Part shown: positions 18,940 to 22,746 of the stretch, piece after piece
Layout: the number at the start of each line of letters is the position of its first letter
Position numbering within the stretch: position 1 is the stretch's first letter
NCBI RefSeq assembly: GCF_048403405.1
Contig: NZ_CP183129.1
DNA from: Escherichia coli
GTDB taxonomy: Bacteria; Pseudomonadota; Gammaproteobacteria; Enterobacterales; Enterobacteriaceae
DNA: 64,000 bases
Strand: one strand, 5' to 3'
Translations under genes and position numbers: made by a program
Notes under the pieces: model-generated
What the model saw: the letters and a program-made list of their open reading frames with translations, nothing else
Told to the model about the DNA's origin: nothing
Databases searched by the model: none

Positions 18940-20322
18940 ATGGAGATGTATTTTAAAAGAATGAAAGATGAGTGGACCGGGCTTGTCGAACAAGCAGATC
19001 CGCTCATTCGTGCTAAAGCCGCGGAAATTGCCGTTGCGCATGCCCATTATCTGAGTATTGAGTTTTACCGAATTGTCCGCATCGACCCGCATGCCGAAGA
19101 ATTCTTGAGTAATGAACAAGTTGAGCGGCAGTTGAAAAGTGCGATGGAACGCTGGATTATTAACGTGCTTTCTGCCCAGGTTGACGATGTCGAAAGGCTA
19201 ATACAAATCCAGCATACCGTTGCGGAAGTGCATGCCCGCATAGGAATTCCGGTAGAAATTGTCGAGATGGGGTTTCGGGTGCTGAAAAAAATCCTCTATC
19301 CAGTCATCTTCTCTTCGGATTATTCCGCCGCAGAAAAACTCCAGGTCTACCATTTCTCTATTAACAGTATTGATATCGCTATGGAAGTGATGACCCGCGC
19401 GTTTACCTTTAGTGACAGTAGTGCCTCAAAGGAAGATGAAAACTATCGTATCTTCTCGTTACTGGAAAACGCCGAAGAAGAAAAAGAACGGCAAATAGCC
19501 TCAATACTTTCATGGGAAATAGATATTATCTATAAAGTCCTGCTGGATTCTGATTTAGGCAGTAGTTTGCCTTTAAGCCAGGCTGATTTTGGCCTGTGGT
19601 TTAACCATAAAGGTCGACATTATTTTAGCGGCATAGCCGAAGTGGGCCATATCTCCCGTCTGATTCAGGATTTCGACGGTATTTTCAATCAAACCATGCG
19701 TAACACCAGGAATTTGAATAACAGAAGTTTACGGGTAAAATTTTTATTACAGATAAGAAATACCGTATCGCAAATTATTACCTTGCTGCGTGAATTGTTT
19801 GAAGAAGTATCGCGCCACGAAGTCGGTATGGATGTACTGACGAAATTACTTAACCGCCGTTTCCTGCCGACGATCTTCAAACGCGAAATTGCCCATGCCA
19901 ACCGGACCGGTACACCGCTGTCAGTGCTGATTATTGACGTTGATAAATTCAAAGAGATTAACGATACGTGGGGTCATAACACTGGCGATGAAATTCTGCG
20001 TAAAGTCTCTCAGGCCTTTTATGACAACGTCCGCAGTAGTGATTATGTTTTCCGCTACGGGGGCGATGAATTTATCATTGTTTTGACTGAAGCTTCGGAA
20101 AACGAAACGTTACGTACCGCAGAACGTATTCGCAGTCGGGTGGAGAAAACCAAACTGAAAGCCGCAAACGGCGAAGATATTGCCCTCTCACTTTCCATCG
20201 GTGCCGCCATGTTTAATGGTCATCCTGACTATGAGCGCCTCATTCAAATAGCCGATGAAGCTCTGTATATCGCCAAAAGACGAGGTAGAAACCGTGTTGA
20301 ACTCTGGAAAGCCAGTCTTTAG
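18940..20322 (+). CDS. dosC: Globin-coupled diguanylate cyclase DosC
   Basis: 460 aa; N-terminal globin sensor and C-terminal GGDEF domain (RYGGDEF). Confidence 0.92.
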   Translation: MEMYFKRMKDEWTGLVEQADPLIRAKAAEIAVAHAHYLSIEFYRIVRIDPHAEEFLSNEQVERQLKSAMERWIINVLSAQVDDVERLIQIQHTVAEVHARIGIPVEIVEMGFRVLKKILYPVIFSSDYSAAEKLQVYHFSINSIDIAMEVMTRAFTFSDSSASKEDENYRIFSLLENAEEEKERQIASILSWEIDIIYKVLLDSDLGSSLPLSQADFGLWFNHKGRHYFSGIAEVGHISRLIQDFDGIFNQTMRNTRNLNNRSLRVKFLLQIRNTVSQIITLLRELFEEVSRHEVGMDVLTKLLNRRFLPTIFKREIAHANRTGTPLSVLIIDVDKFKEINDTWGHNTGDEILRKVSQAFYDNVRSSDYVFRYGGDEFIIVLTEASENETLRTAERIRSRVEKTKLKAANGEDIALSLSIGAAMFNGHPDYERLIQIADEALYIAKRRGRNRVELWKASL

Positions 20323-20346
20323 ATGCGCCAGGATGCAGAGGTAATC

Positions 20347-22746
20347 ATGAAGCTAACCGATGCGGATAATGCCGCCGATGGCATTTTTTTCCCCGCCCTT
20401 GAGCAAAATATGATGGGCGCGGTGTTAATTAACGAAAATGATGAAGTGATGTTTTTCAACCCCGCCGCAGAGAAGCTCTGGGGGTACAAACGTGAAGAAG
20501 TTATTGGCAATAACATTGATATGCTGATTCCGCGGGATTTGCGTCCCGCGCATCCTGAATACATCCGTCACAACCGTGAAGGCGGTAAAGCGCGCGTCGA
20601 GGGGATGAGTCGGGAGCTGCAGCTGGAGAAAAAAGACGGCAGTAAAATCTGGACCCGTTTTGCGCTATCGAAAGTGAGCGCCGAGGGGAAAGTTTATTAC
20701 CTGGCGCTGGTACGGGATGCCAGCGTAGAAATGGCGCAAAAAGAACAGACCCGACAATTGATTATTGCCGTTGACCATCTCGACCGACCAGTGATTGTCC
20801 TCGATCCGGAACGCCATATTGTGCAGTGCAATCGTGCATTTACCGAAATGTTTGGTTACTGCATTAGCGAAGCCAGCGGTATGCAGCCCGATACACTCCT
20901 GAACATTCCAGAATTCCCTGCTGATAACCGCATTCGTTTACAACAGTTGCTATGGAAAACCGCCCGCGATCAGGACGAATTTCTGCTGTTGACGCGCACC
21001 GGTGAAAAAATCTGGATTAAAGCCTCTATCAGCCCGGTCTATGATGTGCTCGCGCATCTGCAGAACCTGGTAATGACTTTCTCGGATATCACCGAAGAAC
21101 GGCAAATCCGCCAGCTTGAAGGCAATATTCTCGCCGCCATGTGCAGCAGCCCGCCATTTCATGAAATGGGGGAAATTATTTGTCGTAACATCGAATCTGT
21201 ACTCAACGAATCGCATGTTTCGCTGTTCGCGCTGCGCAACGGGATGCCGATACACTGGGCGTCATCTTCGCACGGTGCAGAAGTTCAAAATGCGCAAAGC
21301 TGGTCAGCGACCATTCGTCAGCGTGATGGTGCGCCTGCGGGGATCCTGCAAATTAAAACCTCGTCAGGAGCAGAAACCAGCGCCTTTATCGAACGCGTGG
21401 CAGATATCAGCCAGCATATGGCCGCGCTGGCGCTGGAACAGGAAAAAAGCCGTCAGCATATTGAACAACTCATCCAATTTGATCCGATGACCGGTCTGCC
21501 AAATCGCAATAACCTGCACAATTACCTCGATGACCTGGTCGACAAAGCCGTCTCTCCGGTGGTCTATCTCATCGGTGTTGACCATATTCAGGATGTGATT
21601 GATAGCCTTGGCTATGCGTGGGCCGATCAGGCATTGCTGGAAGTGGTCAATCGCTTTCGTGAAAAACTCAAACCGGATCAGTATCTCTGTCGTATCGAAG
21701 GTACGCAGTTTGTCCTCGTGAGCCTCGAAAACGACGTCAGTAACATTACCCAGATCGCCGATGAGCTACGGAATGTGGTCAGCAAGCCGATAATGATTGA
21801 CGATAAACCATTCCCGCTCACCTTGAGCATTGGCATCAGCTACGACGTGGGTAAAAACCGCGATTACCTGCTCTCCACTGCTCACAATGCAATGGATTAT
21901 ATTCGCAAGAATGGCGGTAACGGCTGGCAGTTCTTCAGCCCGGCGATGAACGAAATGGTAAAAGAGCGTTTGGTTTTAGGCGCAGCGCTGAAAGAAGCGA
22001 TTAGCAATAACCAACTAAAACTGGTTTACCAGCCGCAAATCTTCGCAGAAACGGGTGAACTCTACGGCATCGAAGCCCTTGCTCGCTGGCACGATCCCCT
22101 GCATGGTCATGTGCCCCCTTCACGGTTTATTCCTCTCGCAGAAGAGATTGGTGAAATCGAAAATATTGGGCGCTGGGTCATCGCGGAAGCTTGCCGTCAG
22201 TTAGCAGAATGGCGTAGCCAGAATATTCATATCCCGGCGTTATCCGTTAACTTGTCGGCGTTGCACTTTCGCAGTAATCAGCTGCCTAATCAGGTGTCTG
22301 ATGCAATGCACGCCTGGGGTATTGACGGCCACCAGCTGACGGTGGAAATCACGGAAAGCATGATGATGGAACACGATACCGAAATCTTTAAGCGCATTCA
22401 GATCCTGCGCGATATGGGCGTGGGTTTATCGGTAGATGATTTTGGCACGGGCTTTTCCGGATTATCCCGCTTAGTCAGTCTTCCAGTAACGGAAATCAAA
22501 ATTGACAAAAGTTTTGTCGATCGTTGTCTGACCGAAAAACGCATCCTTGCCTTACTTGAAGCCATTACCAGCATTGGGCAAAGCCTCAATTTAACCGTCG
22601 TGGCGGAAGGCGTCGAAACCAAAGAGCAATTTGAGATGCTACGCAAGATCCACTGTCGCGTTATTCAGGGATATTTCTTTTCCCGCCCCCTGCCCGCCGA
22701 AGAAATTCCAGGCTGGATGAGCAGTGTGTTACCGCTGAAAATCTGA
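20347..22746 (+). CDS. dosP: Heme-regulated c-di-GMP phosphodiesterase DosP (PAS-PAS-GGDEF-EAL)
   Basis: 799 aa from MKLTDADNAADG…; EAL domain; ORF begins directly after the dosC stop. Confidence 0.92.
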   Translation: MKLTDADNAADGIFFPALEQNMMGAVLINENDEVMFFNPAAEKLWGYKREEVIGNNIDMLIPRDLRPAHPEYIRHNREGGKARVEGMSRELQLEKKDGSKIWTRFALSKVSAEGKVYYLALVRDASVEMAQKEQTRQLIIAVDHLDRPVIVLDPERHIVQCNRAFTEMFGYCISEASGMQPDTLLNIPEFPADNRIRLQQLLWKTARDQDEFLLLTRTGEKIWIKASISPVYDVLAHLQNLVMTFSDITEERQIRQLEGNILAAMCSSPPFHEMGEIICRNIESVLNESHVSLFALRNGMPIHWASSSHGAEVQNAQSWSATIRQRDGAPAGILQIKTSSGAETSAFIERVADISQHMAALALEQEKSRQHIEQLIQFDPMTGLPNRNNLHNYLDDLVDKAVSPVVYLIGVDHIQDVIDSLGYAWADQALLEVVNRFREKLKPDQYLCRIEGTQFVLVSLENDVSNITQIADELRNVVSKPIMIDDKPFPLTLSIGISYDVGKNRDYLLSTAHNAMDYIRKNGGNGWQFFSPAMNEMVKERLVLGAALKEAISNNQLKLVYQPQIFAETGELYGIEALARWHDPLHGHVPPSRFIPLAEEIGEIENIGRWVIAEACRQLAEWRSQNIHIPALSVNLSALHFRSNQLPNQVSDAMHAWGIDGHQLTVEITESMMMEHDTEIFKRIQILRDMGVGLSVDDFGTGFSGLSRLVSLPVTEIKIDKSFVDRCLTEKRILALLEAITSIGQSLNLTVVAEGVETKEQFEMLRKIHCRVIQGYFFSRPLPAEEIPGWMSSVLPLKI

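What the first reader, a model, noticed from the sequence alone, without database searches (positions are those of the whole stretch)
18940..22746. dosC-dosP oxygen-sensing c-di-GMP module with zero intergenic spacing
The globin-coupled cyclase and the heme-PAS phosphodiesterase are adjacent; the dosP reading frame opens immediately after the dosC stop, consistent with translational coupling. This operon is well characterised.
Basis: established knowledge. Interest (0 to 1): 0.15.

Follow-up and report, generated by a model that had tools for sequence, protein, structure and literature searches.

The report
dosC-dosP operon; start codon misjudged
This is the well-known E. coli oxygen-sensing dosC-dosP operon, and the "zero spacing" between the two genes comes from taking the longest open reading frame: the conserved, annotated and experimentally detected dosP start lies 24 bases further downstream, behind its own ribosome-binding site.

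Summary
The window is E. coli chromosome, 99.975% identical to strain 4621. dosC lies at 18940-20322. It encodes a 460-aa protein with protoglobin, DosC middle and GGDEF domains. An ORF does open at ATG 20323, directly after the dosC TAG, and runs to 22746 (807 aa). That 807-aa form is only the historical "Ec DOS 1-807" numbering.

RefSeq (strain 4621 and K-12) and, according to a 2024 structure paper, UniProt P76129 start DosP at ATG 20347 (799 aa). This leaves a 24-nt spacer that carries a Shine-Dalgarno sequence, GAGGT at 20338-20342.

Evidence for the downstream start:
- In 13 dosCP loci (Escherichia lineages, Citrobacter, unnamed relatives) the downstream ATG and its SD are conserved in all.
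- Spacer length varies: 20, 24, 26 or 32 nt.
- The upstream ATG is present in only 4 loci; it is ATT or ATA in two others.
- Seven loci have an in-frame stop 0-1 codon before the start.
- Published cell-free initiation profiling (INRI-seq) detects the 799-aa start in 5 of 5 replicates on an mRNA that lacks dosC.
- 1050 of 5426 complete E. coli genomes keep dosP, with the same junction sequence in the genome examined, behind a dosC remnant that no ribosome can finish at that TAG.

Verdict: gene identities are correct, the zero-spacing coupling claim is not supported, and the system is already known. Interest is low.

The parts
18773..18779 (+). Candidate sigma-S-type -10 element (CTATACT) upstream of the operon. 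This is an inference only.
   Evidence: Read from the sequence. It is identical in K-12. It resembles the sigma-S -10 consensus with C at -13 (my knowledge). The sigma-70 consensus scan did not flag it. No transcription start site data were consulted.
18861..18902 (+). yddY, a 13-codon upstream ORF ([13 protein letters not shown]) with SD AGGAG, ending 37 nt before the dosC ATG.
   Evidence: K-12 annotates yddY (b4746) at the homologous position. Two papers treat it as an expressed small protein, induced at low Mg2+ in a PhoQP-dependent way.
18940..20322 (+). dosC (dgcO, yddV): globin-coupled diguanylate cyclase, 460 aa, stop TAG at 20320-20322.
   Evidence: ORF and translation. Pfam protoglobin, DosC_2nd and GGDEF. 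RefSeq dosC at the same coordinates. Y43, L65, H98 and GGDEF at 374 are present.
20323..20346 (+). 24-nt dosC-dosP spacer. It holds the non-conserved in-frame ATG (20323-20325) that gives the 807-aa 'historical' ORF. It also holds the conserved block GGATGCAGAGGTAA, with the SD GAGGT at 20338-20342, 4 nt before the dosP ATG.
   Evidence: Sequence. Comparison of 13 loci. Anti-SD duplex energies. RefSeq annotation. Statement in PMC11543664.
20347..22746 (+). dosP (pdeO, yddU, Ec DOS): heme-PAS c-di-GMP phosphodiesterase, 799 aa from the best-supported start.
   Evidence: RefSeq CDS. NCBIfam NF008467 aligns to residues 9-807 of the long ORF. Pfam PAS x2, GGDEF and EAL. H77, M95, R97 (807 numbering), EGTQF and EAL are present. 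INRI-seq peak at this start.
20368..20390 (+). Terminator-like hairpin (AATGCC...GGCATT) followed by T7, inside dosP codons 8-15. Significance is doubtful.
   Evidence: Pattern scan; the number of such sites in the region does not exceed shuffles (7 found, 5.5 expected). Predicted energy is -6.9 kcal/mol here, -10.4 to -10.5 in other Escherichia lineages, -8.3 in L017 and between 0 and -1.6 in the remaining seven loci. No dosC or dosP entry appears in the held supplements of a 3'-end mapping study.
22759..22784 (+). Likely intrinsic terminator of the operon (GCCCGC-ACTC-GCGGGT followed by TTTCATTT), 13 nt after the dosP stop.
   Evidence: Pattern scan. The next gene, ddpX, starts at 23004.

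Best explanation
The region is the known sigma-S/stationary-phase dosCP (dgcO-pdeO) operon of E. coli. It encodes a globin-coupled diguanylate cyclase (DosC, 18940-20322) followed by a heme-PAS c-di-GMP phosphodiesterase (DosP).

DosP is translated mainly from ATG 20347 (799 aa). This start has its own Shine-Dalgarno sequence (GAGGT, 20338-20342) inside a 24-nt intercistronic spacer. The ATG at 20323, which abuts the dosC stop, is a lineage-restricted accident. It extends the ORF by 8 codons (MRQDAEVI) and gave rise to the historical 807-residue numbering.

Shown: gene identities, annotation, conservation pattern, SD strength, and independent initiation in vitro at the 799-aa start.

Inferred: this is also the main start in vivo, and coupling to dosC translation is not required.
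For: 1. RefSeq annotates dosP at window 20347 in strain 4621 and at the homologous position in K-12, as a 2400-nt CDS. Its largest protein cluster is 799 aa with 20,917 member sequences.
2. PMC11543664 Methods states that UniProt P76129 lacks MRQDAEVI and that the 807 form is 'historical numbering'.
3. The NCBIfam DosP equivalog aligns profile positions 1-800 to residues 9-807.
4. In 13 dosCP loci the MK(L/P) ATG and an upstream GAGGT-like SD are invariant. Spacers are 20, 24, 26 or 32 nt, so not always multiples of 3. The upstream codon is ATG in only 4 loci, ATT in L003 and ATA in L013. Seven loci have TAA or TGA in frame 0-1 codon before the start.
5. The anti-SD duplex is -8.5 kcal/mol for ATG 20347, which is in the top 6% of all ATGs in the window. 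For ATG 20323 it is -3.3, about the median.
6. INRI-seq Table S2 reports a retapamulin-stalled initiation peak at K-12 position 1565733, the 799-aa start, in 5 of 5 replicates (27-46 CPM). The synthetic mRNA carried only 30 nt of upstream sequence and no dosC.
7. 1050 of 5426 complete genomes carry a dosC remnant. In the one such genome examined (L009), the frame that ends at the TAG has no start codon, while the junction sequence and an intact 2400-nt dosP are kept.
8. The junction RNA has no significant predicted structure (z = +0.42), so nothing suggests an SD masked until dosC is translated.
Against: - No in vivo N-terminal or start-site data for DosP were found. In vivo Ribo-RET shows no peak because the operon is silent in the conditions used. 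An N-terminomics supplement has no DosP entry.
- Within E. coli the upstream ATG is present in every E. coli junction examined, and the 131-nt junction query is at least 99% identical in 4380 of 5316 matching records.
- The two substitutions seen in one strain (CGC>CGT, ATC>ATT) are silent in the 807-aa frame. This is what coding constraint would give, although two sites prove nothing.
- A stop-abutting AUG can in principle be used by termination-reinitiation without an SD (general knowledge).
- The INRI-seq construct puts the upstream ATG only 9 nt from the 5' end, so it is not a fair test of that codon.
Confidence: 0.88

Rival explanations
1. DosP starts at ATG 20323 (807 aa), there is no spacer, and ribosomes that terminate at the dosC TAG reinitiate on the adjacent AUG. 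DosP synthesis would then be stoichiometrically coupled to DosC.
For: The ORF is open from 20323 and the ATG abuts the TAG. All biochemical and structural work has used this 807-aa form, and it is active. The ATG is present in every E. coli junction examined.
Against: The upstream ATG is absent or blocked in 9 of 13 orthologous loci, and spacer length is not kept in frame. No SD precedes it: the duplex is -3.3 kcal/mol. The family profile and RefSeq start 8 codons later. Initiation at the downstream ATG occurs without dosC. 19% of genomes carry a dosC remnant, and in the one examined the TAG cannot be reached by a translating ribosome while dosP is intact.
Confidence: 0.04
2. Dual starts in E. 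coli proper. The main product is the 799-aa protein, but a minor 807-aa proteoform is made by termination-reinitiation at the stop-abutting AUG. That AUG was acquired within Escherichia.
For: The TAG-ATG arrangement is present in the window and in 3 of 4 other Escherichia lineages. Silent-only variation was seen in one strain. Recombinant 807-aa protein folds and functions.
Against: No experimental trace was found. dosP does not appear in any of the other held supplement files of the INRI-seq paper, but some held files were cut when stored, I did not check that an alternative-start table is among them, and the construct is unfavourable for the upstream ATG. One PDB entry sequence (9CMF) begins at residue 20 of the 807 numbering; this may mean the N-terminal tail is not ordered, but I did not check whether that reflects the construct or the modelled residues. 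The ATG is lost in L003 and L013.
Confidence: 0.1
3. DosP starts at ATG 20347, but its translation still depends largely on dosC translation. Ribosomes released at the TAG would be recaptured 24 nt downstream by the SD, so the operon is coupled despite the spacer.
For: The short 20-32 nt spacer is kept in all 13 loci, and a conserved block (GGATGCAGAGGTAA) is longer than a minimal SD. A 3-codon ORF (ATG CAG AGG TAA, 20333-20344) sits between the dosC stop and the dosP start in 9 loci, with an ATG AGA AGG TGA variant in L014. It could relay ribosomes (read; speculative).
Against: Independent initiation occurs in vitro. No inhibitory structure is predicted at the junction. dosP is retained without a translatable dosC in 1050 genomes. 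The mini-ORF ATG is missing in 3 of 13 loci.
Confidence: 0.25

Closest known systems
E. coli K-12 dosCP (dgcO-pdeO, yddV-yddU/dos) operon, b1490-b1489
   Same: Same genes, same order and same neighbours (gadC-digH upstream, ddpXABCDF downstream). The junction sequence is identical, the yddY leader ORF encodes the same peptide with one silent difference from K-12, and the domain architectures and key residues are the same.
   Different: Only strain-level polymorphism. The window is 99.975% identical to strain 4621. Nothing structural differs.
Historical 'Ec DOS 1-807' protein (PDB 1V9Y, 9CDR and others)
   Same: The 9CDR/9BGV constructs differ from the window protein at position 16.
   Different: It is a cloning and numbering convention taken from the longest ORF. 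It is not the start given by current RefSeq or, according to PMC11543664, by UniProt, and it is not conserved in orthologues.
Stop-start overlapping or abutting gene pairs translated by termination-reinitiation (e.g. TGATG, ATGA, TAATG junctions)
   Same: A TAG-ATG abutment exists in the sequence.
   Different: In those pairs the abutting start is the conserved functional start. Here the conserved start is 24 nt downstream with its own SD, and the abutting ATG is lineage-restricted.

Membership tests
DosP / Ec DOS oxygen-sensing c-di-GMP phosphodiesterase (NCBIfam NF008467 equivalog) | Full-length match to the equivalog model above its curated cut-off | tested here: met
   1645 bits against a cut-off of 857. 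Profile positions 1-800 align to residues 9-807 of the long ORF.
DosP / Ec DOS oxygen-sensing c-di-GMP phosphodiesterase (NCBIfam NF008467 equivalog) | Architecture of heme-PAS, second PAS, degenerate GGDEF (EGTQF) and EAL | tested here: met
   Pfam PAS_9/PAS x2, GGDEF and EAL. EGTQF at 459 and EAL at 584 in 807 numbering.
DosP / Ec DOS oxygen-sensing c-di-GMP phosphodiesterase (NCBIfam NF008467 equivalog) | Heme ligand residues His77 and Met95, plus Arg97 (807 numbering) | tested here: met
   H, M and R are present at those positions. M95 is named as the axial ligand of the Fe(II) heme in PMC4263535, which also cites work on His77 and Arg97 mutants. The identity of His77 as the proximal ligand rests on my own knowledge.
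DosP / Ec DOS oxygen-sensing c-di-GMP phosphodiesterase (NCBIfam NF008467 equivalog) | O2-stimulated hydrolysis of c-di-GMP | not testable with these tools
   Biochemical property. The 161-residue N-terminal query is identical over residues 1-147 to the Ec DOS heme domain in PDB 1V9Y and differs from the full-length constructs 9CDR and 9BGV only at position 16 (plus the engineered R97A in 9BGV).
DosC globin-coupled diguanylate cyclase | Protoglobin sensor, DosC middle domain and GGDEF domain with an intact GGDEF motif | tested here: met
   Pfam PF11563, PF21118 and PF00990. GGDEF at residue 374. RefSeq names the identical CDS dosC.
DosC globin-coupled diguanylate cyclase | Heme pocket residues Tyr43 and Leu65 (distal) and His98 (proximal) | tested here: met
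   Y43, L65 and H98 are present. The distal-side roles of Tyr43 and Leu65 are given in paper titles listed; His98 as the proximal ligand rests on my own knowledge.
Translationally coupled gene pair with zero or negative intergenic spacing | The functional start codon of the downstream gene abuts or overlaps the upstream stop codon | tested here: not met
   An ATG abuts the TAG, but the annotated, conserved and in-vitro-detected start is 24 nt downstream.
Translationally coupled gene pair with zero or negative intergenic spacing | Downstream translation depends on translation of the upstream gene | not testable with these tools
   Indirect evidence against necessity: initiation occurs on a dosC-less mRNA, and dosP is kept behind an untranslatable dosC remnant in 1050 of 5426 genomes.

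The most novel reading that the evidence does not exclude
In E. coli proper, the recently acquired AUG that abuts the dosC stop lets ribosomes finishing DosC make a minor 807-aa DosP proteoform. In addition, or instead, the hairpin plus U7 at dosP codons 8-15 (20368-20390) acts as a translation-sensitive intra-operon attenuator. Either would set the DosC:DosP ratio after transcription starts.
Probability: 0.08. Interest if true: 0.3.

Novelty: already known. Interest (0 to 1): 0.06.

Why it matters
It matters little beyond bookkeeping. The practical point is that two residue numberings of DosP coexist: 807 aa in the biochemical and structural literature, and 799 aa in RefSeq and, according to PMC11543664, in UniProt. 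For example His77/Met95 in one is His69/Met87 in the other. The longest-ORF rule also gives a misleading picture of the dosC-dosP junction. For anyone engineering or deleting dosC, the 24-nt spacer with its SD is the element to preserve.

Tried and rejected
- The genome-contig scan with DosP gave only 7 loci. I therefore used a protein search plus contig look-ups to reach 13 junctions.
- I looked for in vivo start-site or N-terminal data and found nothing usable. No paper combines dosP with 'translation initiation sites'. The TRAINSPOTTER N-terminomics supplements have no DosP or DosC entry. The Ribo-RET preprint and the low-Mg Ribo-RET paper have no supplements held. The in vivo Ribo-RET peak listed in the INRI-seq table is 0.
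- I looked for a mapped RNA 3' end at the internal hairpin. The held supplements of the Term-seq paper PMC7815308 have no dosC or dosP entry.
- I tested whether junction RNA structure masks the SD. It does not: z = +0.42.
- I recalled that Sommerfeldt et al. 2009 reported RNase E processing of the yddV-dos mRNA. I could not find the paper or a citing passage, so I do not use it.
- Povolotsky & Hengge 2016 (guessed id PMC4686208) is not held.
- I considered a CsrA site, because the conserved block contains GGAUG. No literature link between CsrA and dosCP was found, so I dropped it as untested speculation.
- Rfam finds no RNA family in 18000-23000.
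Full report
**Observation**

The window carries two adjacent + strand ORFs: 18940-20322 (460 aa) and 20323-22746 (807 aa). 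The second opens with an ATG placed directly after the TAG of the first.

The region is E. coli chromosome:
- The 4.2-kb stretch matches 5408 of 5426 complete E. coli genomes, some at 100% identity.
- The whole window is 99.975% identical to strain 4621.
- The gene order is gadC-digH-dosC-dosP-ddpXABCDF.

**Identity of the genes**

The first product has protoglobin, DosC_2nd and GGDEF domains. It carries Tyr43, Leu65, His98 and an intact GGDEF motif at residue 374.

The second product has two PAS domains, a GGDEF-like domain and an EAL domain.
- It matches the NCBIfam DosP equivalog NF008467 at 1645 bits against a cut-off of 857.
- It carries His77, Met95 and Arg97 (807 numbering), EGTQF and EAL.
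- Its N-terminus is identical to the Ec DOS heme domain in PDB 1V9Y and differs from the full-length constructs 9CDR and 9BGV only at position 16, plus the engineered R97A in 9BGV.

The interpretation [quoted passage not shown] is correct (reviews and papers).

**Where dosP starts**

RefSeq places the dosP start at window 20347 in strain 4621. It uses the homologous codon in K-12: dosP 1563334-1565733 (2400 nt) and dosC 1565758-1567140, leaving a 24-nt gap.

[quoted passage not shown] The older literature calls the full-length protein "amino acids 1-807".

Four independent lines favour ATG 20347.

1. *Family profile.* The DosP profile begins at residue 9 of the long ORF.

2. *Ribosome-binding site.* GAGGT lies at 20338-20342, 4 nt before ATG 20347.
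   - Its predicted duplex with the 16S 3' end is -8.5 kcal/mol, in the top 6% of all 1214 ATGs in the window.
   - The 20 nt before ATG 20323 give -3.3 kcal/mol, about the median.

3. *Comparison of 13 dosCP loci.* These are the window, four other Escherichia lineages, Citrobacter amalonaticus, rodentium and sedlakii, and unnamed relatives down to 64% protein identity.
   - The MK(L/P) ATG and the preceding GAGGT-type SD are invariant.
   - The spacer is 20, 24, 26 or 32 nt.
   - The codon after the dosC stop is ATG in only 4 loci. It is ATT in L003 and ATA in L013.
   - Seven loci have TAA or TGA in frame 0-1 codon upstream of the start.
   - Within the spacer the first 9 nt vary freely. The last ~15 nt (GGATGCAGAGGTAA) are conserved as nucleotides. 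That is the signature of a ribosome-binding site, not of coding sequence.

4. *Experiment.* INRI-seq uses a cell-free system, retapamulin-stalled initiation complexes and a synthetic mRNA with only 30 nt upstream of the annotated start, so without dosC. It reports a peak at the annotated dosP start (K-12 position 1565733) in 5 of 5 replicates, 27-46 CPM. The in vivo Ribo-RET value is 0, because the operon is not expressed in those cultures.

**Coupling**

- The junction RNA shows no significant predicted structure (z = +0.42), so there is no sign of an SD that must be unmasked by dosC translation.
- 1050 of 5426 complete genomes (19%) carry a dosC remnant about 164 nt long. Frequent absence of DosC is already noted in the literature.
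- In the one such genome examined (L009), the frame ending at the old TAG has 20 codons and no start codon. The yddY start instead opens a 57-codon ORF that stops 68 nt earlier. The junction sequence and an intact 2400-nt dosP are kept. Termination-reinitiation at TAG-ATG is impossible there.
- Some coupling over the 24-nt spacer cannot be excluded. It is not required by anything I found.

**What remains open**

I found no in vivo determination of the native DosP N-terminus. The upstream ATG is present in every E. coli junction I examined, and the 131-nt junction query is at least 99% identical in 4380 of 5316 matching records. The two substitutions seen in one strain are silent in the 807-aa frame. 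A minor 807-aa proteoform made by reinitiation therefore remains possible, at low probability.

**Other anatomy of the operon**

- A 13-codon leader ORF, yddY, lies at 18861-18902.
- A sigma-S-like -10 element, CTATACT, lies at 18773-18779. This is an inference from the sequence.
- A terminator-like hairpin with a T7 run lies inside dosP codons 8-15. The number of such sites in the region does not exceed chance (7 found, 5.5 expected).
- A likely operon terminator lies at 22759-22784.

**Verdict**

This is an already known, well-characterised operon. The only correction is to the gene model: the spacing is 24 nt with an SD, not zero. Interest is low.

Noticed in passing
window 18861-18902 (+): The yddY leader ORF (13 aa, strong SD AGGAG) lies 37 nt upstream of dosC. 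In four other Escherichia lineages the same SD and ATG open only a 3-codon ORF (ATG GTG NNN TAA), and no counterpart was seen at that position in the Citrobacter or unnamed loci. The act of translation, rather than the peptide, may therefore be what is conserved.
   Followed up: partly
window 20368-20390 (+): A hairpin followed by T7 lies inside dosP codons 8-15 and resembles an intrinsic terminator. It is stronger in other Escherichia lineages (-10.4 kcal/mol against -6.9 here). It recurs with two compensatory pair changes in one distant locus (L017, -8.3) and is absent or negligible (0 to -1.6) in the other seven loci. No 3'-end data were found.
   Followed up: partly
window 20333-20344 (+): A 3-codon mini-ORF (ATG CAG AGG TAA) overlaps the dosP SD and ends 2 nt before the dosP ATG. 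It is present in 9 of 13 loci, with an ATG AGA AGG TGA variant in L014. The ATG is missing in 3 loci. It may simply be a by-product of the conserved block GGATGCAGAGGTAA.
   Followed up: partly
L009 1300-1552 (strain DA33135) and 1050 of 5426 E. coli genomes: A common allele in which two deletions reduce dosC to a frameshifted remnant of about 164 nt while dosP stays intact. The yddY start then opens a 57-codon chimeric ORF.
   Followed up: yes
P0103 and relatives; deletion equivalent to window 20248-21282: An in-frame dosC-dosP fusion gene encoding 923 aa: DosC residues 1-441 joined to DosP from Val321 (807 numbering). The product has globin, GGDEF, EGTQF and EAL on one chain and lacks both PAS domains. 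It occurs in 25 of 5426 complete genomes. I could not check whether it has been described.
   Followed up: partly
L011 (strain PEC422) and L012 (strain EC9): Two one-off rearrangements. PEC422 has a deletion that joins truncated gadC directly to the dosC stop and dosP junction. EC9 has a dosP CDS of 2733 nt with an internal duplication.
   Followed up: no
window 57967-59016 (+): A 349-aa MASE5-GGDEF (GGEEF) diguanylate cyclase next to an alkyl/aryl-sulfatase gene. I do not recall either from K-12 (not checked here). They are followed by an ISAs1 remnant and an RHS element.
   Followed up: partly
window 60051-60159 (-): An Rfam group II intron D1-D4 hit (48 bits) lies between the ISAs1 remnant and a pentapeptide-repeat/RHS gene.
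   Followed up: no
window 34259-34382 (-) and 38395-38453 (-): An STnc490 sRNA hit lies beside an IS200/IS605 tnpA gene. The SECIS element lies inside fdnG. Both are expected features.
   Followed up: no
L008 (Terrisporobacter petrolearius contig, 519 nt) and L007 (E. albertii): A 519-nt low-coverage contig filed under a clostridial genome is 97% identical at the protein level (tblastn) to E. coli DosP, which is probably contamination. In E. albertii only DosP residues 453-799 are matched, which suggests a truncated gene.
   Followed up: no
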